From positions 1-17,491 of IMG/VR virus record IMGVR_UViG_3300029741_000087: a stretch of DNA of 17,491 bases; one strand, written 5' to 3'. The notes below the pieces were generated by a model. It was not told the origin of the DNA. It did no database searches and saw only the letters and a list, made by a program, of their open reading frames with translations. This document shows, in pieces, positions 3,594 to 17,065 of the stretch. Positions within the stretch are counted from its first letter, which is position 1, and every line of letters starts with the position of its first letter. The stretch is from a virus. Taxonomy: Duplodnaviria; Heunggongvirae; Uroviricota; Caudoviricetes. The translations under genes were made by a program, and so were the position numbers.

Positions 3594-6500
3594 ATGGCGA
3601 CGTTACGTGAACTGATTATCAAAATTTCGGCAAATTCACAGTCATTCCAGTCGGAGATCCAGCGGGCGTCCCGTATGGGCAGTGAATATTACCGGACCCT
3701 GCAGAATGGCGGACGTCAGGCTGCTGCGGCAGCCAGGGAGCAGTGCCGGGCTCTGGCTGAGCTGAACAGCCAGTTGACGGAAATCCGCGCTTCGGCTGTC
3801 GGAATGACCAGTGCGTTTGCCGGTGCCTTTGCCACCGGACACCTGATTTCGCTGGCAGATGAATGGAGCTCCGTGAATGCCCGTCTGAAACAGGCGTCGC
3901 AGTCATCGGATGAATTTGCGTTATCACAGAAAGTGCTGATGGACATCAGCCAGCGGACAGGCACCGCATTTTCGGATAATGCGACCCTGTTTGCCCGTTC
4001 GGCTGCCTCGATGCGTGAATATGGTTACAGTGCTGATGATGTGCTGAAGGTGACGGAGGCCATTTCGACAGGGCTGAAAATTTCCGGTGCCAGTGCGGCA
4101 GAGGCGGGTTCGGTGATCACCCAGTTCAGCCAGGCGCTGGCACAGGGGGTGTTGCGCGGCGAGGAATTTAATTCGGTCAATGAAAGTGGGGACCGGATCA
4201 TTCGCGCACTGGCTGCAGGCATGGGCGTGGCCCGTAAGGATCTGAAGGCGATGGCGGACGATGGTCAACTGACGGCGGATAAAGTCGTTCCCGCGTTAAT
4301 CAGCCAGCTGGGGATATTGCGTGATGAATATGCAGCCATGCCGGAAACGGTGTCTGACGGGATCACGAAGGTGGAAAACGCCTTTATGGCCTGGGTGGGC
4401 GGCGCGAATGAGGCCAGCGGAGCGACGAAAACGCTCTCCGGCGCACTGAACGGTGTGGCCGGAAATATTGATACCGTGGCAACAGCTGCGGGTGTGCTGG
4501 TTGCTGTCGGGGTGGCCCGGTACTTTGGTAATCTGGCTTCCGGAGCGATGTCTGCCACGGCAGGACTTGTGACCGCTGCACGTAATGAAGTGGCACTGGC
4601 TGAGGCCCAGTTAAGGGGAACGCAGATTGCCACGGCGCGGGCAAGGGCAGCCGTGTACCGGGCTCAGCAGGCTGTGGCGGCAGCCCGCGGGACTGAGATG
4701 CAGATTGCGGCAGAGGCCCGTCTGGCGGTCACACAGGAACGCCTGAACAGAAATATTGCTGCCAGAACCGCCGCCCAGAATGCGCTGAACAGTACAACGG
4801 CGGTGGGCTCACGTCTGATGAGCGGTGCGCTGGGACTGGTTGGAGGCGTACCCGGACTGGTGATGCTGGGAGCTGCCGCATGGTACACGCTGTACCAGAA
4901 TCAGGAGCAGGCCAGGGAGTCTGCGCGCCAGTATGCACTGACGATTGATGAAATCGCGCATAAAACGCCATCAATGTCTCTGCCTGAAGCCTCAGATAAT
5001 GAAGGGCGAACACGGGAGGCGCTGACAGAGCAGAACCGGCTGATTGATGAGCAGGCCAGCCGGGTGAAATCCCTGCAGGAAAAAATCGCCGGGTATCAGT
5101 ATGTGCTGGCTAATCCGGGCTGGACGACCGGTAACGGCTTCATGATAAACCATCTGACATCGGTGAAAACTGTAACGGAAGAGCTTGCTCAGGCAACAGA
5201 GCAGTTTGCTGTTGAGCAGTCCCGTCTGGCACAGATGCAGGAAAAAGCGCAGTCCATTCAGGATGTGCTTGCCGGACTGGAAGAGCGCCGTGTTGTGTTA
5301 ATTCGTCAGCAGGCAGCAGAGCAGAATAAAGCGTATCAGTCACTGCTGGTCATGAACGGTCAGCATACGGAATTCAACCGCCTGCTGGGGCTGGGTAATG
5401 AACTGCTGCAACAGCGTCAGGGACTGGCGAGTGTACCGCTGCGACTGCCACAGGCCACTCTGGATGATAAACAGCAGAGCGCCCTGAATAACACAGAGCG
5501 TCAACTGGCCCTGTCCCGGCTGAAAGGGGAAGAAAAAGAGCGTGCCCGGCTGGGGTATGCGGCGGATGACCTTGGTCTGGTGGGGGATACGTATCAGGAG
5601 GCGAGGCAGCGTTACATCCGTAATTCGATGGAAGCCTGGCGCAATAATGAGGCGAATAAACCCAAATCCCGGGCCGGAAAATCAGGGGCGGAAAAAGCGG
5701 AAGACAGTTTTTCCCGTCTGCTGAAGCAGCAGAAGGAACAACTGGCACTGGCCGGGAAGAATACAGAACTGGCAAAACTGAAATACCAGACCTCGCAGGG
5801 CGAGCTGAAAACCCTGACGGAGATACAGAAGCAGGAGCTGCTGCGCAATGCTGCCCTGATTGACCAGAAGAAAATCCGGGAGCAGTTACGGGCCCGGGAG
5901 GAGACCCTGAAAAATGATAATGCAGACGCAAGGGCATCAAATGACGCTGAGCTGCTGGGGTACGGGCAGGGTGAGCGGGTCCGTGAACGGATGCGGGAGC
6001 TGCAGCAGATTCGTGACGGCTACCGCCAGAAGGATGCGGACCTGCAGTCTCAGTATCAGACAGGGGATATCAGTGAGGATTTTTACAGACAGGCGCTGGC
6101 GCAGAATGCGCAGTATCTGAGTGAACGCCTTAAAGACCAGGAGGCTTTTTATGCCGAATCGGATGCGCAGCGTGCTGACTGGCAGAAAGGGCTGCAGGAA
6201 GGGCTAAGTAACTGGGTGGACAGCGCATCAGATTACGCTTCACAGGCAGCACAGCTTGCGACAGACGGTATCTCAGGGATGGTGAATAACATCACGGAGA
6301 TGCTGAACGGAAATAAAGTGGAATGGCGCAGCTGGGCTGCATCAATCCTGCAGGAAATATCAAAAGTTCTTATGAATGCGGCCATTGTCAACGGCATTAA
6401 GATGGCGGCAAACAGTATGTCCGGTGCAGGAGGATTTTTCGGCAGTATAGGCAACTGGCTGGGTGGCGCGGTGGCAAATGCAAAAGGCGGCGTTTATACC

Positions 6501-6836
6501 TCGGCAAACCTGAGTGCATACAGTAACAGTATTGTGGACACGCCCACGTACTTTGCCTTTGCAAAAGGGGCAGGGCTGATGGGGGAGGCCGGACCTGAAG
6601 CCATCATGCCCCTGACCCGGGCAGCGGATGGTTCACTCGGCGTGCGTGCGGTGGGCAGTATGAACGGCAGTGCGGGTCTGGTGTATTCCCCGGTGTACCA
6701 CATCGCCATTCAGAATGACGGCGCTAACGGGCAGATAGGGCCGGAAGCGGCGGGCACCCTTGTGCAACTGATTGACCAGCGGGTACAGGCGGTGATGTTA
6801 TCCATGCGTCGTGACGGAGGAATGCTGAGTGGATGA
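3594..6836 (+). CDS. H: Tail tape measure protein
   Basis: 1080 aa, Ala/Gln-rich, predicted coiled-coil-like, with a hydrophobic Gly-rich segment. C-terminus (QNDGANGQIGPEAAG...RRDGGMLSG) resembles the lambda H C-terminus as I recall it (NNDGTNGQIGPAAL...RDGGLFSG). Shine-Dalgarno AGGAGAAAGG upstream. Confidence 0.9.
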   Translation: MATLRELIIKISANSQSFQSEIQRASRMGSEYYRTLQNGGRQAAAAAREQCRALAELNSQLTEIRASAVGMTSAFAGAFATGHLISLADEWSSVNARLKQASQSSDEFALSQKVLMDISQRTGTAFSDNATLFARSAASMREYGYSADDVLKVTEAISTGLKISGASAAEAGSVITQFSQALAQGVLRGEEFNSVNESGDRIIRALAAGMGVARKDLKAMADDGQLTADKVVPALISQLGILRDEYAAMPETVSDGITKVENAFMAWVGGANEASGATKTLSGALNGVAGNIDTVATAAGVLVAVGVARYFGNLASGAMSATAGLVTAARNEVALAEAQLRGTQIATARARAAVYRAQQAVAAARGTEMQIAAEARLAVTQERLNRNIAARTAAQNALNSTTAVGSRLMSGALGLVGGVPGLVMLGAAAWYTLYQNQEQARESARQYALTIDEIAHKTPSMSLPEASDNEGRTREALTEQNRLIDEQASRVKSLQEKIAGYQYVLANPGWTTGNGFMINHLTSVKTVTEELAQATEQFAVEQSRLAQMQEKAQSIQDVLAGLEERRVVLIRQQAAEQNKAYQSLLVMNGQHTEFNRLLGLGNELLQQRQGLASVPLRLPQATLDDKQQSALNNTERQLALSRLKGEEKERARLGYAADDLGLVGDTYQEARQRYIRNSMEAWRNNEANKPKSRAGKSGAEKAEDSFSRLLKQQKEQLALAGKNTELAKLKYQTSQGELKTLTEIQKQELLRNAALIDQKKIREQLRAREETLKNDNADARASNDAELLGYGQGERVRERMRELQQIRDGYRQKDADLQSQYQTGDISEDFYRQALAQNAQYLSERLKDQEAFYAESDAQRADWQKGLQEGLSNWVDSASDYASQAAQLATDGISGMVNNITEMLNGNKVEWRSWAASILQEISKVLMNAAIVNGIKMAANSMSGAGGFFGSIGNWLGGAVANAKGGVYTSANLSAYSNSIVDTPTYFAFAKGAGLMGEAGPEAIMPLTRAADGSLGVRAVGSMNGSAGLVYSPVYHIAIQNDGANGQIGPEAAGTLVQLIDQRVQAVMLSMRRDGGMLSG

Positions 6837-7170
6837 GATTAAGACTCTTCACTGGTGTCCCCGGGAAGGGATGCAGGTGACGGAGAAACCGTCGGTGATG
6901 ACGGTGAAGTTTGGCGACGGTTATCAGCAGCGTCGTCCGGCAGGACTGAATGCGCAACTGAAGACCTTTCAGGTGGTTTTTCGGGTGACAACGGATGCTG
7001 AGCGGGAGGCACTGTCCGCGTTTCTGTCATGGCATGGTGGTTACCGGGCTTTTTTGTGGAAGCCCCCGAAACATAACCGGACGGTCAGGGTGGTGTGCCG
7101 GGAGTGGAGTATTACGGATAACGCCCGGTACAGTGATTTCAGTTGCACGATAGAGCAGGTAGTTAGATGA
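6829..7170 (+). CDS. M: Minor tail protein M
   Basis: 113 aa; KFGDGYQQRRPAGLNAQLKTF...HGGYRAFLWKPP...EQVV aligns closely with lambda M (RFGDGYSQRAPAGLNANLKTY...HGGWKSFLWTPP...EQVV) from memory. GTG start overlaps the H stop. Confidence 0.9.
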   Translation: MDEIKTLHWCPREGMQVTEKPSVMTVKFGDGYQQRRPAGLNAQLKTFQVVFRVTTDAEREALSAFLSWHGGYRAFLWKPPKHNRTVRVVCREWSITDNARYSDFSCTIEQVVR

Positions 7171-7368: not shown

Positions 7369-8523
7369 ATGAAAAAAATGACAGTGGCACTTTCTGCTGT
7401 AGCAGTGGCAGTGATGTTTGCTGCGGGGGCGCAGGCAGCAGAAGTTTATAATAAAGATGGTAATAAACTGGATCTTTACGGGCGTGCAACCGCTCTGCAT
7501 TACTTCTCGGATGATAAAGGTAATGACGGAGACCAGACTTATGCTCGTCTCGGCTTTAAAGGCGAAACGCAGATTAATGATCAACTGACCGGATTTGGTC
7601 AGTGGGAATACCAGTTCTCTGGTAATAAAACGGAATCTGAAGGTTCCGCGGGAAATAAAACCCGTCTGGCATTTGCAGGTCTGAGATTTGCAGATGTTGG
7701 TACCATTGATTACGGACGTAACTATGGTATTGCTTACGATGTCGGATCATATACTGACGTACTGCCTGAGTTTGGTGGTGATGGCTGGACGCAGACCGAT
7801 AACTTTATGACGGCCCGAACTTCCGGTGTCCTGACTTACCGTAATACAGACTTCTTCGGACTGGTTGATGGTCTGAATTTTGCGGCGCAGTATCAGGGCA
7901 AAAATGAGCGTGATGACCTTCAGAAGGCTAATGGCGACGGGTATGGTTTCTCGGCCAGCTATGAGTTTGATGGTTTTGGTTTTGTCGCTGCGTATACCAA
8001 GTCAGATCGTACTGATAAGCAGGTTCAGGGGTTGAATGGTACTGCAGATGTTCTTGATCCTGCATCAGGTAAAAAGGTTGGAGAAAAAGCAGTTGACTCA
8101 GGTAGTGTGGCAAAAGGTAAACATGCTGAATTCTGGGGAACTGGTCTTAAATATGATGCCAATAACCTGTATCTGGCAGCAGTGTATTCTGAAACCCAGA
8201 ATATGACGACCTTTGGTGATCAAGGTGTTGCGGATAAAGCTCAGAATATCGAAGCCGTTGTTCAGTATCAGTTTGATTTTGGTCTGCGCCCGTCCCTTGC
8301 CTACCTTCAGTCCCGCGGACAGGATGTTATGGTTGGTGGTGTGAACCATGGCGATCAGGATCTGGTTAAATATATTGATGTCGGTGCGACTTATTACTTT
8401 AACAAGAATATGTCCACCTATGTTGATTATAAAATTAACCTGATTGATGAAAGTGAATTTACCCGGAAAGCCGGTGTTGCGACAGATAATATCGTTGCTG
8501 TGGGTATGACTTATCAGTTCTGA
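7369..8523 (+). CDS. General outer-membrane porin, OmpC/OmpF/PhoE family (phage moron)
   Basis: 384 aa. Cleavable signal peptide [23 protein letters not shown] followed by [15 protein letters not shown]; C-terminal ...VAVGMTYQF with terminal Phe, typical of beta-barrel porins. AAGGA Shine-Dalgarno before the ATG. The gene and its flanks are markedly AT-richer than neighbouring tail genes. Confidence 0.9.
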
Positions 8524-8695: not shown

Positions 8696-8720
8696 CGGGG
8701 CGCGTCTGCGCCCCTTTTTT
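8696..8720 (+). terminator. Intrinsic terminator closing the porin moron, abutting the L start
   Basis: ggggcgc (8697-8703), loop gtct, gcgcccc (8708-8714), then tttttt at 8715-8720. Confidence 0.7.
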
Positions 8721-8732
8721 ATGGGCGGATAT

Positions 8733-9431
8733 ATGCAGGATATTCACGAAGAAAGCCTGAACGAGTCGGTTAAGTCAGAGCAGTCACCGCGGGTGGTGCT
8801 CTGGGAAATCGACCTGACGGTGCAGGGCGGTGAGCGGTATTTTTTCTGCAATGAGCTGAATGAAAAAGGGGAGCCGGTGACCTGGCAGGGGCGTGAATAT
8901 CAGGCGTACCCGATTGAGGGCAGCGGCTTTGAGATGAACGGAAAGGGCAGCAGTGCCCGCCCGTCGCTGACGGTGTCCAATCTTTTCGGCCTTGTCACCG
9001 GGATGGCGGAGGATTTGCAGAGCCTGGTGGGTGCCACGGTGGTCCGCCGCCGGGTGTATGCGCGTTTTCTTGATGCGGTGAACTTTGTGGCGGGGAATCC
9101 GGAGGCAGACCCGGAGCAGGAGCTGACGGACCGGTGGGTGGTGGAGCAGTTATCAGCGCTGACGGCCATGACGGCCTCGTTTGTGCTGGCGACACCGACG
9201 GAGACGGACGGGGCGCTGTTTCCCGGTCGCATCATGCTGGCGAACACCTGTATGTGGGATTACCGGGGCGATGAGTGCGGGTATAACGGTCCGGCAGTGG
9301 CGGATGAGTTCGACAACCCTACCACGGATATCCGGAAGGACAGATGCAGTAAATGCATGCGCGGGTGTGAGATGCGCGGCATGGCGGTCAATTTTGGCGG
9401 TTTCCTTTCCATCAATAAACTTTCGCAGTAA
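8733..9431 (+). CDS. L: Minor tail protein L
   Basis: Starting at ATG 8733 the protein MQDIHEESLNE...VVLWEIDL...GERYFFCNE...GEPVTWQGREYQ...FGGFLSINKLSQ is near-colinear with lambda L as I recall it (MQDIRQETLNE...FGGFLSINKLSQ). The track's 8691 start is an upstream extension through the terminator. Confidence 0.9.
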   Translation: MQDIHEESLNESVKSEQSPRVVLWEIDLTVQGGERYFFCNELNEKGEPVTWQGREYQAYPIEGSGFEMNGKGSSARPSLTVSNLFGLVTGMAEDLQSLVGATVVRRRVYARFLDAVNFVAGNPEADPEQELTDRWVVEQLSALTAMTASFVLATPTETDGALFPGRIMLANTCMWDYRGDECGYNGPAVADEFDNPTTDIRKDRCSKCMRGCEMRGMAVNFGGFLSINKLSQ

Positions 9432-9441
9432 ATCCCGGTTT

Positions 9442-10185
9442 ATGACACAGACTGAATCAGCGATTCTGGTGCATGCCCGGCGGTGTGCGCCAGCGGAGTC
9501 GTGCGGCTTCGTGATAAGCACCCCGGAGGGCGAACGGTACCAGCCCTGCGTGAATATCTCCGCAGAGCCGGAGGCGTATTTTCGTATTACACCGGAAGAC
9601 TGGCTGCAGGCACAGATGCAGGGGGAGATTGTGGCGCTGGTCCACAGTCATCCCGGTGGTCTGCCCTGGCTGAGCGAGGCGGACCGGCGGCTGCAGATAA
9701 AGAGTGCCCTGCCCTGGTGGCTGGTCTGCCGGGGTGAAATTCACCGGTTCCGCTGTGTGCCGCACCTGACCGGACGGCGCTTTGAACACGGTGTGACGGA
9801 CTGTTACACCCTGTTCCGGGATGCATACCATCTGGCGGGGATAACGCTGCCGGATTTTGTGCGTGAGGATGACTGGTGGCGCAACGGTCAGAACCTGTAC
9901 CTGGACAACCTGGCAGACAACGGCTTTTACCGGGTGTCTCCGTCCTGTGCACAGGCGGGCGATATCCTGCTGTGCTGCTTTGGTTCATCGGTGCCGAATC
10001 ATGCCGCCATTTACTGTGGCAACGGTGAACTGCTTCACCATATACCTGAACAACTGAGTAAACGGGAGAGGTATTCAGAGAAATGGCAACGACGAACGCA
10101 TTCTGTCTGGCGTCACCGCCACTGGTCCGCATCTGCCTTCACGGGGATTTACAACGATTTGGTCGCCGCATCAGCCTGTATGTGA
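9442..10185 (+). CDS. K: Tail assembly protein K (JAMM/MPN plus NlpC/P60 domains)
   Basis: Starts MTQTESAIL as in lambda K. JAMM motif HSHPGGLPWLSEAD (HxHx7Sx2D) and an NlpC/P60-like Cys/His pair (DCYTL, NHAAIY). The track's 9181 start overlaps L and is rejected. Confidence 0.9.
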   Translation: MTQTESAILVHARRCAPAESCGFVISTPEGERYQPCVNISAEPEAYFRITPEDWLQAQMQGEIVALVHSHPGGLPWLSEADRRLQIKSALPWWLVCRGEIHRFRCVPHLTGRRFEHGVTDCYTLFRDAYHLAGITLPDFVREDDWWRNGQNLYLDNLADNGFYRVSPSCAQAGDILLCCFGSSVPNHAAIYCGNGELLHHIPEQLSKRERYSEKWQRRTHSVWRHRHWSASAFTGIYNDLVAASACM

Positions 10186-10763
10186 ACACGGCAGCGGAGG
10201 CCATCCGTGCCCTGTCGCTGCAGGTGCCGGGATTCCGCGGTCAGATGAACGAAGGCTGGTATCAGATACGTATTGCCGGTGAGGATACCGCACCGGAGGC
10301 GGTGTACGCCCGTCTTCACGAACAACTGGGTGAGGGAGCGGTCATCCACATTGTGCCGCGACTGGCCGGAGCCGGGGGAAATGGTGTTTTTCAGGTGGTG
10401 CTGGGGGTTGCAGCGATTGTCGGGTCATTTTTCACTGGTGGTGCAACACTGGCGGCATGGGGCGCAGCCCTGAGTGCCGGAGGGCTGACTGCCACCACGA
10501 TGCTGTTCTCACTGGGTGCCAGCATGATACTGGGTGGTGTGGCTCAGATGCTGGCCCCGAAGGCAAAGACGCCGGAGTATAAAAGTACGGATAACGGTAA
10601 ACAGAACACGTATTTTTCGTCACTGGACAACATGATTGCCCAGGGTAACCCGATGCCGGTGCCTTACGGTGAAATGCTGGTTGGTTCACGACGGATATCC
10701 CAGGATATCAGCACCCGTGATGAGGGCGGAGACGGGAAAGTGGTGGTTATCGGACGGGGATAA
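10083..10763 (+). CDS. I: Tail assembly protein I
   Basis: MATTNAFCLASPPLVRICLHGDLQRFGRRI...NGKQNTYFSSLDNM...VVVIGRG aligns with lambda I (MAATHTLPLASPGMARICLYGDLQRFGRRI...VVVIGR) from memory. Overlaps the 3' end of K. Confidence 0.9.
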   Translation: MATTNAFCLASPPLVRICLHGDLQRFGRRISLYVNTAAEAIRALSLQVPGFRGQMNEGWYQIRIAGEDTAPEAVYARLHEQLGEGAVIHIVPRLAGAGGNGVFQVVLGVAAIVGSFFTGGATLAAWGAALSAGGLTATTMLFSLGASMILGGVAQMLAPKAKTPEYKSTDNGKQNTYFSSLDNMIAQGNPMPVPYGEMLVGSRRISQDISTRDEGGDGKVVVIGRG

Positions 10764-10866
10764 AAATAAAAAAATCCCGCAGAGTTAGCGGAGCTGCGGG
10801 AAGAGATACGAAGATTAACTGTAAGGAGTTATTATTATGTCACAGCAAAAAAAACGGTAACGCAGA
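10764..10866 (-). ncRNA. Candidate small RNA, cassette 1 (predicted from promoter and terminator; not a known family by sequence)
   Basis: Minus strand: TTCACA (10897-10892), 16-bp spacer, TATAAT (10875-10870), predicted start near 10864 at conserved GCGUUACC. Intrinsic terminator: hairpin 10800-10776 then U7 (10774-10768). No plausible ORF. Contains AACUCCUUACA. Confidence 0.5.
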
Positions 10867-10896
10867 GAAATTATAAGCGCCACTGGGATTTTGTGA

Positions 10897-10918
10897 AAAT
10901 GTGAAGAATTTCAGAAAT
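10897..10918. promoter_or_regulatory. CRP-like box (TGTGA-N6-TCAGA), cassette 1
   Basis: AAATGTGAagaattTCAGAaat; left half matches the CRP consensus AAATGTGA exactly, right half is TCAGA versus TCACA. Centre is about 43 bp upstream of the predicted minus-strand start. Confidence 0.45.
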
Positions 10919-10996
10919 TTTTTGCTGCAGAGGTGCAGGGAGCTTGCCGGGTATCTGTGGCAGAAGACAGAAAACATCATGCCGGGGTTAAGGGAT

Positions 10997-11096
10997 AAAA
11001 AAATCCCGCAGAGTCCGGAGACTGCGGGACAGAACCGATGAAGATTAACGTTCAAGGAGTTTTGTTTTTATTGACCCGAAAAAACTGTAACGCCCC
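10997..11096 (-). ncRNA. Candidate small RNA, cassette 2
   Basis: Minus strand: -10-like TATCAT (11105-11100), start near 11094 at conserved GCGUUACAG, terminator hairpin 11028-11005 then U7 (11003-10997). Contains AACUCCUUGAA. The -35 is poor. Confidence 0.4.
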
Positions 11097-11126
11097 GGAA
11101 TGATATCTGCCACGGGAACGTACAGA

Positions 11127-11148
11127 AAATGTGAAGAAATTCAGACTT
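11127..11148. promoter_or_regulatory. CRP-like box, cassette 2
   Basis: AAATGTGAagaaatTCAGActt; same spacing to the -10 hexamer and conserved GCGTTAC as in cassette 1. Confidence 0.4.
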
Positions 11149-11230
11149 TTTCTGTCGCAGGTTTACAGAACGGATGACCGCCAGGGTACCAGTGGCGTAA
11201 ATGAGCAGGATGTTGTGGTGTGGCTGAAGC

Positions 11231-11336
11231 AAAAAAATCTCCCGTAATATCGCCGGATACTGACGGGAGACGAATAGTCACCTTAAGGAGGTCTGATAAT
11301 TATTGCTTTTATTGAGCAAAAAAACTGTAACGCTGC
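11231..11336 (-). ncRNA. Candidate small RNA, cassette 3
   Basis: Minus strand: TATAAT (11345-11340), start near 11334 at conserved GCGUUACAG, terminator with perfect 8-bp stem (11271-11264 / 11245-11238) then U7 (11237-11231). Contains GACCUCCUUAAGG. Confidence 0.5.
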
Positions 11337-11366
11337 GTCATTATAGTGGCTACAGGCAATTGCCGG

Positions 11367-11388
11367 AAATGTGAAGAATTTCAGAAAT
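11367..11388. promoter_or_regulatory. CRP-like box, cassette 3
   Basis: AAATGTGAagaattTCAGAaat; same spacing to the TATAAT at 11345-11340 as in cassette 1. Confidence 0.45.
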
Positions 11389-11404
11389 TTTATTCCGTCA
11401 TGAC

Positions 11405-11436
11405 ACAGGCACCCTCCGGGGTGCCTGTCGTTTTCT
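11405..11436 (+). terminator. Plus-strand intrinsic terminator about 40 nt upstream of the J start
   Basis: Perfect 10-bp stem acaggcaccc (11405-11414) / gggtgcctgt (11419-11428), loop tccg, followed by cgttttct. Confidence 0.5.
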
Positions 11437-11478
11437 GGCATAAACAGATTCAGACATCAGACAGGAGAGGGGGACAGA

Positions 11479-14400
11479 GTGGGTAAAGGGGGCGGCAAGG
11501 GGCACACACCGCGTGAGGCGAAGGACAATCTCAAATCCACGCAGATGATGAGCGTGATTGATGCCATTGGTGAGGGACCGGTGGAAGGTCCGGTGAAGGG
11601 ACTGCAGAGTATTCTGGTGAACAAAACCCCGCTGACGGACACGGACGGTAATCCCGTGATACACGGTGTGACCGCCGTCTGGCGTGCCGGGGAGCAGGAG
11701 CAGACACCGCCGGAAGGCTTTGAGTCCTCCGGGGCAGAAACCGCACTGGGCGTGGAGGTGACGAAGGCAAAGCCGGTGACGCGCACCATCACGTCAGCGA
11801 ACATTGACCGTCTGCGGGTCACCTTCGGGGTACAGTCACTGGTGGAGACCACCTCAAAGGGTGACCGTAATCCCTCTTCTGTCCGCCTGCTGATTCAGCT
11901 TGAGCGTAACGGGCACTGGGTGACGGAGAAGGATGTCACCATTAACGGCAAGACCACCTCGCAGTACCTGACGTCGGTGATTCTGAATAATCTCCCTGAG
12001 CGCCCCTTTAACATCCGGATGGTCAGGGTGACGGCGGACAGCACCACGGACCAGCTGCAGAACAGAACGCTGTGGTCGTCATACACCGAAATCATCGATG
12101 TGAAACAGTGCTACCCGAACACGGCGATTGTGGGGCTGCAGGTGGATGCGGAGCAGTTTGGTGGCCAGCAGCTGACGGTGAACTACCATATCCGTGGTCG
12201 CATCATTCAGGTGCCGTCAAACTATGACCCGGAAAAACGCACCTACAGCGGTATCTGGGACGGGAGTCTGAAACCGGCATACAGCAATAACCCGGCCTGG
12301 TGCCTGTGGGACATGCTGACCCACCCGCGCTACGGCATGGGAAAACGCCTGGGGGCCCCGGACGTGGACAAGTGGGCACTGTATGCCATCGGGCAGTACT
12401 GTGACCAGACGGTCCCGGATGGTTTCGGGGGAACAGAGCCGCGGATGACTTTCAATGCGTACCTGTCACAGCAGCGTAAGGTGTGGGATGTCCTGGGGGA
12501 TTTCTGCTCGGCGATGCGCTGTATGCCGGTATGGAACGGCCAGACGCTGACGTTCGTTCAGGACCGTCCGTCGGATGTGGTGTGGCCGTACACCAACAGC
12601 GATGTGGTGGTGGATGATAACGGCGTGGGGTTCCGCTACAGCTTCAGTGCCCTGAAGGACCGGCACACGGCGGTGGAGGTGAATTACACCGACCCGCAGA
12701 ACGGCTGGCAGACCTCCACGGAACTGGTGGAAGACCCGGACGCCATCCTGCGCTACGGGCGCAATCTGCTGAAGATGGATGCGTTCGGCTGTACCAGCCG
12801 CGGTCAGGCCCACCGTGCCGGACTGTGGGTGATAAAGACAGAACTGCTGGAAACGCAGACGGTGGATTTCACGCTCGGGTCACAGGGGCTGCGGCACACG
12901 CCCGGTGACATCATTGAAATCTGTGATAACGACTACGCCGGGACCCTGACCGGTGGACGCATCCTGTCCATCGATGCCGCCAGCCGTACCCTGACGCTGG
13001 ACCGTGAGGTGATACTGCCGGAAGCAGGGACATCGACGGTGAACCTGATTAACGGCAGCGGTAAGCCGGTGCGCGTGGACATCACTGCACACCCCGCCCC
13101 TGACCGGATACAGGTCAGCGTCCTGCCTGATGGCGTGGAGACATACGGTGTGTGGGGACTCTCCCTGCCGTCACTGCGTCGTCGCCTGTTCCGCTGTGTT
13201 TCCATCCGGGAAAACACGGACGGCACCTTTGCCATCACGGCAGTGCAGCACGTACCGGAAAAAGAAGCCATCGTGGATAACGGGGCCACCTTTGAGCCGC
13301 TGTCCGGTTCACTGAACAGCGTCATCCCGCCGGCAGTGCAGCACCTCACGGTGGAGGTGAGTGCCTCAGACGGCCAGTATCTGGCGCTGGCGAAATGGGA
13401 CACGCCGCGGGTGGTGAAGGGCGTGCGCTTCAGTCTGCGCCTGACCAGTGGCAGTGGTGAAAACAGCCGCCTGGTGACCAGCGCTATCACTGCCGACACG
13501 GAGCACCGTTTCAGTGGCCTGCCGCCCGGGGAATACACCCTGACGGTCAGGGCGATAAACAGCTACGGCCAGCAGGGCGAACCTGCCACCACCACGTTCC
13601 GGATTAACGCACCGGCAGCACCGGCCAGCATTGAACTGACGCCGGGGTATTATCAGATAACGGCGGTCCCGCATCTTACGGTGTATGACCCGACGGTACA
13701 ATTTGAGTTCTGGTTTTCGGAGGCAAAAATCGCAGACACATCTCAGGTGGAAACCTCTGCCCGTTATCTGGGGACAGGCAGCCAGTGGAGTGTCTCCGGC
13801 CCGCACATTAAGCCGGGGAAGGATTTCTGGTTTTATGTGCGCAGCGTCAACCTGGTGGGGAAATCTGCGTTTGTGGAAGCCAGTGGCCGGGCCAGCAATG
13901 ATGCGGAAGGGTATCTGGGGCTGTTTCGGGAAAAGATAGGAAAACTGCATCTGGCACAGGGGATGTGGGAGCTGATTGATAACAGCCAGCTTGATGATGA
14001 GATGGCGGAGATGAAGACCACCATCACAGAAACCCGCAATGAAATCACGCAGACGGTCAGTAAAACCCTGGAAGACCAGAGCGCCACCATACAGCAGATA
14101 CAGCGGGTGCAGACAGACACAAATAACGACCTGGCTGCGCTGTACATGCTGAAGGTGCAGAAAACAAAAAACGGCATTCCGTATGTTGCCGGTATTGGTG
14201 CGGGGATTGAGGATGCTGATGGCCAGCCCCTGAGCAATATACTGCTGCAGGCGGACCGTATCGCGATGATTAACCCGGAGAACGGCAACACCACGCCGCT
14301 GTTTGTGGCGCAGGGGAATCAGCTGTTCATGAACGATGTGTTCCTGAAGCGACTGTTTGCGGTGAGCATCACCTCGTCCGGCAATCCCCCGACGTTCTCC

Positions 14401-14946
14401 CTGACGCCGGAGGGCAGGCTGACGGCCCGCAATGCGGACATCAGCGGACATATCAGTGCGAACTCGGGCACGCTGAATAATGTCGTGATAGCGGAGAACT
14501 GTACGATAAATGGCACGCTGAAAGCGGAGAACATTATTGGTGATCTTGTGAAATGTGCAGGGGTGGCTTTTCCGGTGGATGGTAGTTACCTTGCGAACGG
14601 TACACGAACGCTGACGGTGTATGACGATCACAGCTTTGACCGGCAGATTATAATCCCGCCGATAATCTATGTCGGGTCAAAACAGGAATCCCGCACCAGT
14701 AATGACATCTGGACAGAGTGCTTCCTGCATGTTGATCAGAACGGACGCCGGATTTATTCAGGCAGGTCAGTGACAGAGCCGGGAATTTTCAGCGGGATCA
14801 TCGATATGCCAGCCGGTCATGGTCATATCACCCTGAGTTTTACCGTAAGTTCACGACGTCAGAACGGGAGTTTTGGCAGTTCACGTATCAGTAACCTTCA
14901 GGCGATAGTGGTGAAGAAAAACAGCGCGGGGATCAGTATCCGCTGA
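11479..14946 (+). CDS. J: Host specificity / central tail fibre protein J
   Basis: 1155 aa from a GTG start. N-terminus [22 protein letters not shown] and long internal stretches (for example [35 protein letters not shown]) are near-identical to lambda J as I recall it. The C-terminal ~150 aa are more divergent. Confidence 0.95.
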
Positions 14947-15144
14947 ACATCGCGCCCCGGGATTGCCGGAAGGAGACAAAAACCGTACAGTATGCGCGGG
15001 TGCCTTTGGCTGATGGCCGGAGGGAACACCTGAAGGCCGGATGTGAAAAGGCCCCGGACAAACATTCATGTTTAACCCGAGGCCTGACCATTCATCCTAA
15101 GCAAGTGAAAGGTTAGCGCCTCTCCGTAAAAGGAGCAAGCGTTT

Positions 15145-15285
15145 ATGTCGCAAAAACCGTTAAAAACCACCGTGATTTGTATCACGGTAGTGCTCATTAT
15201 CTGGATCACCCACACTTCACTGTGCGAGTTCCGGTTCCGGATAGCGGGCGCGGAGATTGCGGCGTTCTTACAGTGTAAGCAGTAA
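15145..15285 (+). CDS. Hok/Gef-family type I toxin (small membrane peptide); not in the ORF track because it is shorter than 60 aa
   Basis: 46 aa: MSQKPLKTTVICITVVLIIWITHTSLCEFRFRIAGAEIAAFLQCKQ. One transmembrane stretch followed by SLCEFRFR...EIAAF, matching the Hok signature (Hok of plasmid R1: ...[23 protein letters not shown]) from memory. AGGAG at 15131-15135, 9 nt before the ATG. Confidence 0.7.
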   Translation: MSQKPLKTTVICITVVLIIWITHTSLCEFRFRIAGAEIAAFLQCKQ

Positions 15286-15427: not shown

Positions 15428-17065
15428 ATGACAGTCAGAATATCGGGTGTGCTGAAGGATGGTACGGGAAAAGCGGTACCGGGATGCACGATAGAGCTGA
15501 AAGCGCGCCGCACAACGGAGACGGTGATTGTCACCACGGTGGCGTATGGTCAGCCGGGGGAAACCGGCAGTTACAGTATGGATGTTGAGCCGGGGTTGTA
15601 CCGGGTGACGCTGAACACGGAAGGGTACGCGCCGTCATATGTGGGTGACATTCTGGTGAAGGCGGATTCTGCACCGGGAACGCTGAATAAATATCTGATG
15701 GACCTGGAAGACGCACAGTATTACCCGAAAGCCCTTGCAGAGCTGGAAGCGGTGGCAGCGGAAATCCTGAAACGTGCGGAAGCGTCAGCGGCGAGTGCGG
15801 AGGAGGCAAAAAAACGGGCAGAGAATGCGCGGGGACCGAAGGGGGATAAGGGGGACACCGGGCCGCAGGGTATTCCCGGGCCAAAAGGCGATACCGGCGA
15901 GCGGGGGCCAAAGGGTGAGCGTGGTGAGACAGGACCACAGGGGCTTCAGGGTGTGAAAGGTGAACGGGGAGAGAAGGGCGAAAAAGGCGAGCCGGGAGGA
16001 CCGGATGCGACGACGGCACAGAAGGGAATTGTGCAGTTAAGCAGCGCAACGGACAGTGATGATGAAACGAAGGCAGCCACCCCGAAAGCGGTGAAAGCGG
16101 CAATGGACAAAGCGGACGGATGCCTGGAGAAAGCGAAAAACGGTGACGATATCCCGGATAAGGTGAAGTTTCTGAACACCGTGGGAGCAGCCAGAGTATA
16201 CGGGCGGGACATTCATACGGAGACCGGTGAATGGACCACGAGTGAGTTTGTGGCCTGGCTGAAAGAAAAGGGGGCATTTGACCAGCCTTACTGGATGATG
16301 AAGGCATCACTGCCTGCGGCAATGAATAAAGTCATCACAGATGTCGGACCGGGAAAACTCAATCTGGGTGGCTGTGTCATTGAGGTGATGGGAACGTATG
16401 AGGCTGCCATAGTCCGGGTCACCATTGGCGAATACGGTGCAACGGGGTTTATTAATGGCACGGTCTGTACCTGTACGGTTTACGGCGACACACGGTATTT
16501 CCACTGGCGGGTGGATTACAGCACAAAAAACAAACCGGATACGGTCAGCCAGCGGGATGCCAGCACGACGCAGAAAGGTGTGGTGCAGTTAAGCAGTGAT
16601 ACTGGCAGTAATGACGAAACAAAGGCAGCCACGCCGAAGGCCGTGAAGGCGGCAATGGATGTGGCAAATGAAGCGAAAACAAAGGCAGAAGAGGCTGCAG
16701 CAGGAGGTGGTGTTCCCGGTCCGAAAGGGGAGAAAGGCGACCCCGGTCCCAGAGGTGAGCGTGGAGAAACCGGGCCGATGGGGCCGCCCGGGGCATCAGA
16801 CGGGAAGAGCCGGGTTGTGGGTATCAGGCTGGGTAATAAACAGACTTATGCGCCGCAAACAGACAGCACTACATGGGCAGTGGATTTGGATATTGGTGCG
16901 ATGATTACGGGGATTGGCGGTTACAACGACGGAAACAAAACCCTTATTGACAGGGTATCTTACAGGCCGCTTCAGGTGACATTTGATGGTTCTCAGTGGC
17001 GTACAGTCAGCGTGGGTGAGTATGTGTCGTCAGGAGCTTCGGGGTTTGAGTATTTTCCATTATAA
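15428..17065 (+). CDS. stf: Side tail fibre protein (Stf-like) with collagen-like Gly-X-Y tracts
   Basis: 545 aa. N-terminus MTVRISGVLKDGTGKAVPGCTIELKARR matches lambda Stf (MAVKISGVLKDGTGKPVQNCTIQLKARR) from memory. Two copies of the fibre repeat QKG(I/V)VQLSS...ETKAATPKAVKAAMD. Gly-X-Y runs at aa 136-191 and 427-455. Confidence 0.9.
   Translation: MTVRISGVLKDGTGKAVPGCTIELKARRTTETVIVTTVAYGQPGETGSYSMDVEPGLYRVTLNTEGYAPSYVGDILVKADSAPGTLNKYLMDLEDAQYYPKALAELEAVAAEILKRAEASAASAEEAKKRAENARGPKGDKGDTGPQGIPGPKGDTGERGPKGERGETGPQGLQGVKGERGEKGEKGEPGGPDATTAQKGIVQLSSATDSDDETKAATPKAVKAAMDKADGCLEKAKNGDDIPDKVKFLNTVGAARVYGRDIHTETGEWTTSEFVAWLKEKGAFDQPYWMMKASLPAAMNKVITDVGPGKLNLGGCVIEVMGTYEAAIVRVTIGEYGATGFINGTVCTCTVYGDTRYFHWRVDYSTKNKPDTVSQRDASTTQKGVVQLSSDTGSNDETKAATPKAVKAAMDVANEAKTKAEEAAAGGGVPGPKGEKGDPGPRGERGETGPMGPPGASDGKSRVVGIRLGNKQTYAPQTDSTTWAVDLDIGAMITGIGGYNDGNKTLIDRVSYRPLQVTFDGSQWRTVSVGEYVSSGASGFEYFPL

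What the first reader, a model, noticed from the sequence alone, without database searches (positions are those of the whole stretch)
10820..11295. Predicted sRNAs carry an anti-Shine-Dalgarno core (CCUCCUUA), an architecture reminiscent of CyaR
The most conserved internal block of the minus-strand transcripts is AACUCCUUACA (unit 1), AACUCCUUGAA (unit 2) and GACCUCCUUAAGG (unit 3). The unit 3 version ACCUCCUUA equals the 3' end of 16S rRNA, so these RNAs could pair with ribosome-binding sites of target mRNAs. The core sRNA CyaR combines a class II CRP promoter with a CCUCC-containing seed and represses ompX and other mRNAs (established; CyaR sequence recalled, not aligned). The same region read on the plus strand is a strong AAGGAG(G) followed by non-conserved tiny ORFs, so the alternative that the Shine-Dalgarno side is the functional one cannot be excluded from sequence alone. 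A prophage that also carries its own porin gene plus putative envelope-targeting sRNAs would be a coherent lysogenic-conversion module, but that link is speculative.
Basis: inference. Interest (0 to 1): 0.75.

Follow-up and report, generated by a model that had tools for sequence, protein, structure and literature searches.

The report
Three tandem PasB-type prophage small RNAs
The gap between two phage tail genes holds three tandem genes for a known, Hfq-bound but functionally uncharacterised prophage small RNA (PasB/EcOnc22); they look real, but the idea that they act as CyaR-like mimics of the ribosome's anti-Shine-Dalgarno sequence is only partly borne out.

Summary
The 715-nt gap between tail genes I and J holds three tandem minus-strand units. 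Each has a conserved TCTGA-N6-TCACA box, a -10 element, a ~96-103 nt transcript and an intrinsic terminator with a U7 tail. These are not a new RNA class. They are paralogues of PasB (EPEC E2348/69; Northern-verified, Hfq-dependent, 37 RIL-seq partners) and of EcOnc22/23/24 (EHEC Sakai; ~85 nt, destabilised without Hfq), which occupy the same I-J slot.

A covariance model built from other family members hits exactly the three predicted transcripts. No Rfam family matches, CyaR included.

The C/U-rich block is accessible and preceded by (ARN)n repeats, but it varies across the family. A second block (UUAAUCUUC) is at least as conserved.

I re-analysed published PasB RIL-seq data. In 12 of 16 partners the reads straddle a start codon. 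The enriched target motif is UGAAG (complement of CUUCA), not AGGAG.

The CRP-like box sits 3 bp further from the -10 than in CyaR.

Possibly new here: the tandem array with diverged seeds, and the swap of unit 1's seed-bearing part. Targets of these three RNAs remain unknown.

The parts
10768..10863 (-). sRNA gene 1 (96 nt predicted; PasB/EcOnc22 family). Starts at the conserved GCGUUA, 7 nt after the -10, and ends in U7.
   Evidence: CM R1 hit 10863-10768, 99 bits, E 7.5e-17; nhmmer; alignment with PasB; fold.
10997..11093 (-). sRNA gene 2 (97 nt predicted).
   Evidence: CM R1 hit 11093-10997, 74 bits, E 3.3e-12.
11231..11333 (-). sRNA gene 3 (103 nt predicted). The most divergent paralogue, with a different terminator sequence.
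   Evidence: CM R1 hit 11333-11231, 32.9 bits, E 1.7e-4; 66-69% identity to the other units and to PasB; relatives in other arrays.
10823..10828 (-). Block A of unit 1: CUCCUU (in AACUCCUUACA), the anti-SD-like motif of the finding.
   Evidence: It forms the 5' arm and loop of a weak 5-bp hairpin; mean P(unpaired) 0.70.
11054..11059 (-). Block A of unit 2: CUCCUU (in AACUCCUUGAA).
   Evidence: mean P(unpaired) 0.61.
11285..11291 (-). Block A of unit 3: CCUCCUU (in GACCUCCUUAAGG). ACCUCCUUA is identical to the 16S rRNA 3' end.
   Evidence: ACCU/AGGU form a 4-bp stem with CCUUA in the loop.
10810..10818 (-). Block B of unit 1: UUAAUCUUC, the second conserved single-stranded block. It corresponds to the main predicted pairing region of PasB.
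   Evidence: Family conservation; PasB duplex predictions. The seed proposed in bioRxiv 10.64898/2026.05.13.724894 is 'just upstream of the terminator'.
11040..11048 (-). Block B of unit 2: UUAAUCUUC, followed by AU (it contains CUUCA).
11270..11284 (-). Unit 3's counterpart of the linker plus block B: AAGGUGACUAUUCGU.
   Evidence: It recurs in three unit-3 subtypes, but these were collected with this very pattern, so its conservation is by construction.
10775..10801 (-). Intrinsic terminator hairpin of unit 1; the U7 tail follows at 10774-10768.
11003..11030 (-). Intrinsic terminator hairpin of unit 2; the U-tail runs to 10997.
11237..11271 (-). Intrinsic terminator hairpin of unit 3, with a different sequence but the same architecture; the U-tail runs to 11231.
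10870..10915 (-). Promoter 1: box TCTGAAATTCTTCACA (10915-10900), -35-like TTCACA (10897-10892), -10 TATAAT (10875-10870).
11100..11145 (-). Promoter 2: box TCTGAATTTCTTCACA (11145-11130), -10 TATCAT (11105-11100), poor -35.
11340..11385 (-). Promoter 3: box TCTGAAATTCTTCACA (11385-11370), -10 TATAAT (11345-11340), poor -35.
10829..10840 (-). A-rich (ARN)n stretch just 5' of block A in unit 1 (AAU AAU AAC). Units 2 and 3 have 4 and 5 in-frame ARN triplets at the equivalent place.
   Evidence: Read from the sequences; the interpretation as an Hfq distal-face site is inference.

Best explanation
The I-J intergenic region carries a tandem array of three independently transcribed genes on the strand opposite the tail operon. 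They encode Hfq-dependent, trans-acting small RNAs of the PasB/EcOnc22 family.

Each gene is a self-contained 'moron'. It has a promoter (a conserved TCTGA-N6-TCACA box plus a -10), a ~100-nt RNA and an intrinsic terminator with a U7 tail.

Each RNA has, in order: a conserved 5' GCGUUA plus U-run; an A-rich (ARN)n stretch; a ~30-nt weakly structured C/U-rich seed region made of block A (CUCCUU) and block B (UUAAUCUUC or a variant); and the terminator.

The RNAs are made in the lysogen. Hfq binds them through the U-tail and probably the ARN repeats. The C/U-rich stretch pairs with purine-rich sequences at or near start codons of host and horizontally acquired mRNAs, which would block translation initiation.

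The three seeds differ, so the three RNAs should have different, partly overlapping target sets.

Shown, for homologues only: expression, size, Hfq dependence and RNA partners. Shown here: homology, gene anatomy and accessibility. Inferred: TSS positions, the direction of regulation, the regulator of the box, and the targets of these three RNAs.
For: - Context: lambda-like tail module H-M-(porin)-L-K-I | array | J.
- Anatomy: three ~230-240 nt repeats, each with box, -10, conserved +1 GCGUUA and terminator.
- Same slot as PasB: PasB (NC_011601.1 1466343-1466261, minus strand, 83 nt) lies in the I-J gap of E2348/69 prophage PP6. It aligns with all three units (69-78% identity).
- Homology test: CM R1, built without window-like sequences, hits exactly the three predicted transcripts and nothing else significant.
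- PasB experiments: Northern-verified; log2 fold change in the hfq deletion is -6.8 and -2.4; 37 RIL-seq interactions; it is almost always the second RNA in chimeras.
- EcOnc22/23/24 (~85 nt, destabilised without Hfq) map to the I-J gaps of Sakai Sp15, Sp14 and Sp11 once the coordinate shift is calibrated on AgvB1.
- PasB complementarity to its partners exceeds shuffles: Fisher p 7e-5 and 2e-4.
- In 12 of 16 partners the reads straddle a start codon.
- UGAAG occurs in 12 of 16 partner windows against 3.2 expected.
- Seed accessibility.
Against: - No expression data exist for this particular prophage.
- TSSs are predicted only. The published PasB 5' end, taken from read coverage, is ~15 nt downstream of my predicted +1.
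- Unit 3 scores weakly (E 1.7e-4).
- Individual duplex predictions are mostly not significant on their own.
- The UGAAG motif was chosen after looking at the duplexes, so its p-value is optimistic.
- I examined 16 selected partners, not all 37.
- The original authors found no common target motif for PasB.
- The window's seeds differ from PasB's and pair less well with PasB's partners, so nothing is known about their targets.
- No significant trans target was found among the window's own start regions.
Confidence: 0.75

Rival explanations
1. The RNAs are CyaR-like: a class II CRP promoter drives an RNA whose CCUCCUU core mimics the 16S anti-SD and occludes canonical Shine-Dalgarno sequences, for example of envelope protein mRNAs.
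For: - Unit 3 carries ACCUCCUUA and CyaR carries CACCUCCUUA.
- The box matches TGTGA-N6-TCACA at 9 of 10 core positions. These are the only three such matches in the window.
- In a 4-unit array elsewhere the half-sites are kept while the spacer varies.
- PasB is higher in LB than in glucose-containing DMEM.
- Several PasB duplexes cover SD-like GAAGGA or GGAGG, as in yijD, gshA and ydbJ.
Against: - No Rfam CyaR match.
- The box-to-(-10) gap is 24 nt against 21 nt in cyaR, so the centre is about -44.5 rather than -41.5/-42.5.
- AGGAG and AAGGAG are not enriched in PasB partner windows.
- Block A is variable, and absent in one paralogue.
- Unit 1 has a near-consensus -35/-10 (11 of 12) and need not depend on an activator.
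- No complementarity to the prophage porin start region beyond chance.
Confidence: 0.25
2. Cis-antisense role. The RNAs, or their convergent transcription, act on the late tail-operon mRNA that reads through the I-J gap. This would trigger processing or interference that tunes expression of J. It does not exclude a trans role.
For: - The genes are perfectly complementary to the I-J part of the late transcript and always occupy this slot.
- A conserved plus-strand hairpin sits between the array and the J ribosome-binding site.
Against: - PasB and EcOnc22 were detected in uninduced lysogens, and PasB has many trans partners there.
- The RNAs do not overlap the J ribosome-binding site.
- Copy number varies from 1 to 4, and seeds are swapped between otherwise identical arrays. 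Neither is expected for a fixed cis task.
Confidence: 0.12
3. The plus strand is the functional one. AAGGAG(G) is a Shine-Dalgarno for tiny ORFs within the late operon, and the minus-strand features are incidental.
For: AAGGAG followed by ATG after 8 nt gives MSQQKKR in unit 1.
Against: - Across 55 variants many lack an SD-like block or a start codon.
- The peptides differ in sequence and length because the A/U-run length varies.
- The minus-strand RNA is detected experimentally in homologues.
Confidence: 0.03
4. The RNAs are sponges ('anti-sRNAs') like AgvB and AsxR, sequestering a host sRNA rather than regulating mRNAs.
For: - Prophage-encoded anti-sRNAs exist in the same strains.
- One PasB chimera partner is an RNA from the pasA region.
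Against: - No Rfam AgvB or AsxR match, whereas AgvB is readily found in Sakai.
- The RNAs are longer (~96-103 nt against 51-60 nt) and sit at a different phage site.
- The PasB partners seen in the non-activating RIL-seq sheet are mRNA segments.
Confidence: 0.06

Closest known systems
PasB (EPEC E2348/69, prophage PP6; Pearl Mizrahi et al. 2021, PMC8550237; Zhu, Shabalina & Storz 2026, bioRxiv 10.64898/2026.05.13.724894)
   Same: Same slot (I-J gap, antisense to the tail operon). Same promoter box, -10, 5' GCGUUA plus U-run, A-rich stretch, C/U-rich seed region, terminator and U7 tail. 69-78% identity.
   Different: - Here there are three tandem, diverged copies. The 2026 census reports a minimum distance of 28 kb between pasB copies. 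A blastn search with the 83-nt PasB finds only unit 1.
- The seeds differ: PasB has CUCCUUCACAUUGAUCUUCAUUUG with two CUUCA. Units 1 and 3 have none and unit 2 has one.
EcOnc22/EcOnc23/EcOnc24 (EHEC O157:H7 Sakai prophages Sp15, Sp14, Sp11; Tree et al. 2014, PMC4104026 Table S2)
   Same: Same family and same slot. ~85 nt on Northern, Hfq-crosslinked, destabilised in the hfq deletion.
   Different: One copy per prophage. Block A reads CUCCAU, not CUCCUU. The Sakai-type seed occupies the unit 1 position in the arrays closest to this window.
CyaR (RyeE, Rfam RF00112)
   Same: Hfq-dependent size class. A C/U-rich seed containing CCUCCUU (unit 3). A-rich 5' part. A CRP-like box upstream. Action at ribosome-binding sites (established for CyaR; inferred here).
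   Different: No sequence or structure homology. CyaR is a core-genome gene next to yegQ. Its anti-SD sits in a larger loop. Its CRP site is 3 bp closer to the -10.
AgvB/AsxR anti-sRNAs of lambdoid prophages
   Same: Prophage 'moron' sRNAs convergent to phage operons. The 3' part is conserved and the 5' seed part is variable and exchangeable.
   Different: They sit at a different phage site (downstream of PR'), are 51-60 nt long and act as sponges. No Rfam match here.

Membership tests
PasB/EcOnc22 prophage sRNA family | Located in the intergenic region between tail genes I and J of a lambdoid prophage, on the strand opposite the tail operon | tested here: met
   Pfam identifies I (10083-10763) and J (11479-14946). 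PasB and EcOnc22-24 occupy the same slot.
PasB/EcOnc22 prophage sRNA family | Sequence and structure homology to known members | tested here: met
   A CM built from 13 other members gives E 7.5e-17, 3.3e-12 and 1.7e-4 at exactly the predicted transcripts. Alignment A1. Unit 3 is the weakest.
PasB/EcOnc22 prophage sRNA family | Own promoter and intrinsic terminator with a U-tail of at least 6 (Hfq-binding module) | tested here: met
PasB/EcOnc22 prophage sRNA family | Expressed as an ~85-nt RNA whose stability depends on Hfq | not testable with these tools
   Shown only for PasB and EcOnc22.
CyaR (RF00112) | Match to the Rfam covariance model | tested here: not met
   No match at the gathering score or at E<=10 in 10600-11600.
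CyaR (RF00112) | Class II CRP-dependent promoter (site centred near -41.5) | tested here: not met
   The box matches the CRP core at 9 of 10 positions. Its gap to the -10 is 24 nt against 21 nt in cyaR, giving a centre near -44.5. CRP binding itself was not tested.
CyaR (RF00112) | Exposed CCUCCUU anti-SD seed that pairs with ribosome-binding sites | tested here: inconclusive
   The motif is present and accessible. In the homologue PasB, partner windows are enriched for UGAAG, not AGGAG.
AgvB/AsxR anti-sRNAs | Rfam RF02702/RF02703 match; 51-60 nt; located downstream of PR' | tested here: not met
   The same search finds AgvB in Sakai.
Class II Hfq-binding sRNAs (ARN motif plus U-tail; ChiX, MgrR, CyaR type) | Repeated A-R-N triplets in the sRNA body in addition to the 3' U-tail | tested here: met
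   3, 4 and 5 in-frame ARN triplets just 5' of block A in units 1, 2 and 3, and 4 in PasB (sequences). Binding to the distal face of Hfq was not tested.

The most novel reading that the evidence does not exclude
The I-J junction of lambdoid prophages is a cassette site where sRNA genes are duplicated and where their seed-bearing 5' parts are exchanged by recombination. A lysogen would thereby acquire a battery of one to four related regulators with different C/U-rich seeds under one common, possibly carbon-responsive, promoter box. The unit 3 type, whose ACCUCCUUA equals the 16S 3' end, could then act as a broad competitor for strong Shine-Dalgarno sites rather than as a gene-specific regulator.
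Probability: 0.15. Interest if true: 0.6.

Novelty: new member of a known kind. Interest (0 to 1): 0.38.

Why it matters
PasB/EcOnc22 RNAs are among the more abundant Hfq-bound prophage RNAs in EPEC and EHEC, and their function is still unknown. This locus shows three things.

- The family can occur as tandem arrays of diverged paralogues, which a BLAST search with the 83-nt PasB query does not detect (it finds only unit 1).
- Seed regions are swapped between otherwise identical arrays.
- Published interactome data point to pairing at start codons through CUUCA-type motifs.

Together these give concrete seeds, promoters and reporter targets to test. They also suggest that prophages can retune host post-transcriptional control by shuffling sRNA cassettes. 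It does not reveal a new kind of RNA.

Tried and rejected
- **Rfam.** Searches at the gathering score and at E<=10 gave only chance-level hits and no CyaR, AgvB, AsxR or Esr41 match.
- **Plus-strand tiny ORFs.** Not conserved.
- **Trans targets inside the window.** I tested the start regions of H, M, porin, L, K, I, J and the tail fibre gene against the three seeds. Nothing survives correction for 24 tests; the best was unit 2 against J, p 0.025.
- **Scan of one genome per species with the promoter box.** It returned 82 hits, about the number expected by chance for 17 fixed bases (my estimate ~70). By nhmmer only Escherichia albertii and two contigs that are probably contaminants (labelled Streptomyces and Parendozoicomonas) carry the RNA.
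- **EcOnc22-24 peak coordinates.** At first they appeared to fall upstream of the predicted promoter. The cause was a coordinate shift between genome versions, measured as +137 to +146 at AgvB1.
- **Other regulators for the box.** I considered LexA, OmpR and LacI-type sites by inspection only. None fitted better than CRP, and none was tested.
- **duplexfold on whole regions.** It produced long loop-ridden duplexes, so I replaced it with ungapped and windowed scans.

Full report
**What is in the window.** The window is the tail module of a lambdoid prophage. Pfam identifies the tape-measure protein (3594-6836), M (6829-7170), an OmpC-type porin (7369-8523), L, K, I (10083-10763), J (11479-14946) and a tail fibre gene (15428-17065). 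The finding lies in the 715-nt gap between I and J. This gap contains three direct repeats spaced 230 and 240 nt apart.

**Anatomy of one unit.** Read on the minus strand, each unit has the following parts.
- A box TCTGAAnnTCTTCACATTT. It occurs three times in the window and never in 200 shuffles.
- A -10 element (TATAAT, TATCAT, TATAAT) exactly 24 nt after the box.
- A conserved GCGUUA starting at the seventh base after the -10.
- A U-run, then an A-rich stretch, then a C/U-rich stretch.
- A G+C-rich hairpin followed by seven U.

The predicted RNAs are 10863-10768 (96 nt), 11093-10997 (97 nt) and 11333-11231 (103 nt).

**Check of the observation.** The quoted blocks are present at the stated places: AACUCCUUACA, AACUCCUUGAA and GACCUCCUUAAGG. 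Unit 3's ACCUCCUUA equals the 16S rRNA 3' end (established knowledge). The three blocks are homologous positions of one repeated unit, so they count as one event.

**Identity: a known family.** Rfam has no match at the gathering score or at E<=10. The literature does.
- Pearl Mizrahi et al. 2021 (PMC8550237) describe PasB in EPEC E2348/69. It is an 83-nt RNA on the minus strand at NC_011601.1 1466343-1466261 in prophage PP6. It was verified by Northern blot. Its level falls in an hfq deletion (log2 fold change -6.8 and -2.4). It has 37 RIL-seq interactions and is almost always the second RNA in chimeras. It is more abundant in LB than in DMEM.
- The Northern probe for PasB is nearly identical to window 10771-10793.
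- In E2348/69 this RNA lies between the genes annotated 'tail assembly protein' and 'tail tip protein J'. This is the same slot and the same orientation as here.
- The alignment shows all parts conserved between PasB, the Sakai phage and the three units. Identity is 69-78%.

**Independent homology test.** I built a covariance model from 13 other family members, leaving out window-like sequences. It hits exactly the three predicted transcripts (E 7.5e-17, 3.3e-12 and 1.7e-4). Nothing else in the window scores below E 1.5.

**The family was seen even earlier.** Tree et al. 2014 (PMC4104026, Table S2) list EcOnc22, EcOnc23 and EcOnc24 in Sakai prophages Sp15, Sp14 and Sp11. EcOnc22 is ~85 nt on Northern and destabilised without Hfq. 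All three peaks fall in I-J gaps, on the strand opposite the tail genes. In current coordinates the peaks sit about 120-150 nt upstream of the RNA. The same shift (+137 to +146) is measured at AgvB1, located by Rfam. With that shift the peaks fall inside the predicted RNA.

**Is the C/U-rich block an exposed seed?** Block A is partly in the loop and 5' arm of weak 4-5 bp hairpins. Mean P(unpaired) is 0.61-0.71. The probability that all six bases are free is 0.05-0.09, an opening cost below 2 kcal/mol. This is higher than the 0.01 computed for CyaR's validated seed.

Immediately 5' of the block are 3-5 in-frame A-R-N triplets, the sequence type that binds the distal face of Hfq. That interpretation is inference from established knowledge of class II sRNAs.

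**Family-wide view.** A scan of viral contigs with the box found 120 loci and 65 distinct units.
- Block A varies: UUCCUU is the commonest form, followed by CUCCUU, CUCCCU, CUCCAU (Sakai), CCCCCU, CUCUCU, CUUCUU and UAUCUA.
- Block B (UUAAUCUUC) is at least as conserved, and the 4-6 nt linker is variable.
- In a four-unit array from another E. coli, one unit has neither block (CGCCAACAGGUUAGUCAAC).
- The 2026 preprint proposes the PasB seed 'just upstream of the terminator', which corresponds to block B.

**Test against published interactome data.** I took 16 PasB partners from the non-activating RIL-seq sheet. I chose those with many chimeras or narrow read windows and fetched their sequences.
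- In 12 of 16 the read window straddles or abuts a start codon: E2348C_2649, napF, yijD, caiF, gshA, rpoS, trmJ, tolC, raiA, ydbJ, yrdD and yidF.
- PasB's single-stranded body is more complementary to these windows than to shuffled versions. Fisher combined p is 7e-5 for the ungapped scan of 12 targets and 2e-4 for the windowed duplexfold scan of 16.
- Predicted duplexes use nt 36-62, CUCCUUCACAUUGAUCUUCAUUUGUCU. Coverage peaks on GAUCUUC and UUUGUC (11-14 of 16) and is lower on CUCCUU.
- Clean examples are napF (16 contiguous pairs at -10 to +5), yijD (UCCUUCACAUU with AAUGUGAAGGA at -17 to -7), tolC (UCUUCAUUUGU across the start codon) and gshA (block B on GGAGGUCAAU).
- UGAAG, the complement of CUUCA, which occurs twice in PasB, is present in 12 of 16 windows against 3.2 expected. 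AGGAG is present in 2 of 16 against 2.9 expected.

Two caveats apply. I chose the UGAAG motif after seeing the duplexes, and the targets are a selected subset.

The conclusion is that the RNAs probably act at translation start regions through a C/U-rich seed. In the one member with data, the recognised element is GAAG-type and is not the canonical Shine-Dalgarno.

**Promoter.** The box matches TGTGA-N6-TCACA at 9 of 10 core positions. These are the only three such matches in the window, but because they are copies of one another the chance argument is weak. In the four-unit array the half-sites are kept while the spacer varies, as expected for the site of a dimeric factor. Higher PasB levels in LB than in DMEM fit CRP control.

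The spacing does not fit a class II promoter. The gap to the -10 is 24 nt, against 21 nt in cyaR, which puts the centre near -44.5. Unit 1 also has a near-consensus -35/-10 (11 of 12). CRP control is therefore possible but unproven, and the class II architecture is not confirmed.

**Alternatives.** Plus-strand tiny ORFs are not conserved. A cis-antisense effect on the late I-J transcript cannot be excluded. It does not explain the trans partners, the variable copy number or the seed swapping. Sponge function is unlikely given the mRNA partners. No link to the porin gene was found.

**What may be new.**
- The 2026 census reports a minimum distance of 28 kb between pasB copies. Here three copies lie within 600 nt. 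A blastn search with the 83-nt PasB detects only unit 1, which explains why such a census would miss the array.
- Arrays covering at least 80% of this region occur in 46 of 5,426 complete E. coli genomes. Three- and four-unit arrays occur in several viral contigs.
- Compared with the closest array (E. coli N51), 26 of 28 differences across the 801 nt compared fall in unit 1: 21 in the RNA, all 5' of the terminator hairpin, and 5 in the promoter. Units 2 and 3 are identical. That array carries the Sakai-type seed at the unit 1 position. This looks like cassette exchange of the seed-bearing part.

**Verdict.** This is a real feature and a member of a known but functionally uncharacterised family. 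It is partly unsupported (CyaR kinship, class II CRP promoter, canonical anti-SD recognition, porin link).

Noticed in passing
window 7369-8523 (+), terminator-like hairpin 8697-8720: An OmpC-type porin gene (Pfam Porin_1, E 6e-144) is inserted as a moron between tail genes M and L. A G+C-rich hairpin plus T6 lies just before the L start at 8733. The closest E. coli relative annotates the gene as ompC.
   Followed up: partly
window 14998-15285 (+): A hok/sok-type toxin-antitoxin module lies just after J. It comprises a 46-aa Hok-like ORF (15145-15285) and an Rfam sok match of 55 bits, just under the gathering score of 59 (E 1.5e-11). The relative N51 annotates a Hok/Gef protein at the same place.
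   Followed up: partly
window 11405-11428 (+): A 10-bp G+C-rich hairpin followed by CGTTTTCTGG sits between the sRNA array and the J ribosome-binding site. It is conserved in E2348/69 and Sakai. Units 1 and 2 have only degenerate counterparts at the equivalent position. Its role (plus-strand terminator, attenuator or mRNA stabiliser) is unknown.
   Followed up: no
window 10803-10909 versus L137 9001-9798 and L047: Almost all differences from the closest three-unit arrays lie in unit 1: its promoter and the RNA 5' of the terminator hairpin. Units 2 and 3 are identical to those of N51. This suggests recombinational replacement of one sRNA cassette.
   Followed up: partly
L136 465-1420 (E. coli OkiPb01681), also L229-L238: Four-unit arrays exist in the same I-J slot. 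One unit has a seed region without either C/U-rich block (AAAACGCCAACAGGUUAGUCAACAUCG).
   Followed up: partly
L177 (labelled Streptomyces flavalbus, 3.4-kb contig) and L161 (labelled Parendozoicomonas haliclonae, 460-bp contig): Short contigs in non-enterobacterial assemblies carry a full-scoring PasB-family RNA (E about 1e-18 to 1e-20). They are probably E. coli prophage contamination in those assemblies.
   Followed up: no
Sakai NC_002695.2 versus coordinates in Tree et al. 2014: EcOnc coordinates from 2014 are offset by about +137 to +146 nt relative to the current RefSeq version at 1.94 Mb, and apparently also at 2.17-2.90 Mb. Anyone mapping those peaks onto the current record will misplace them.
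   Followed up: yes
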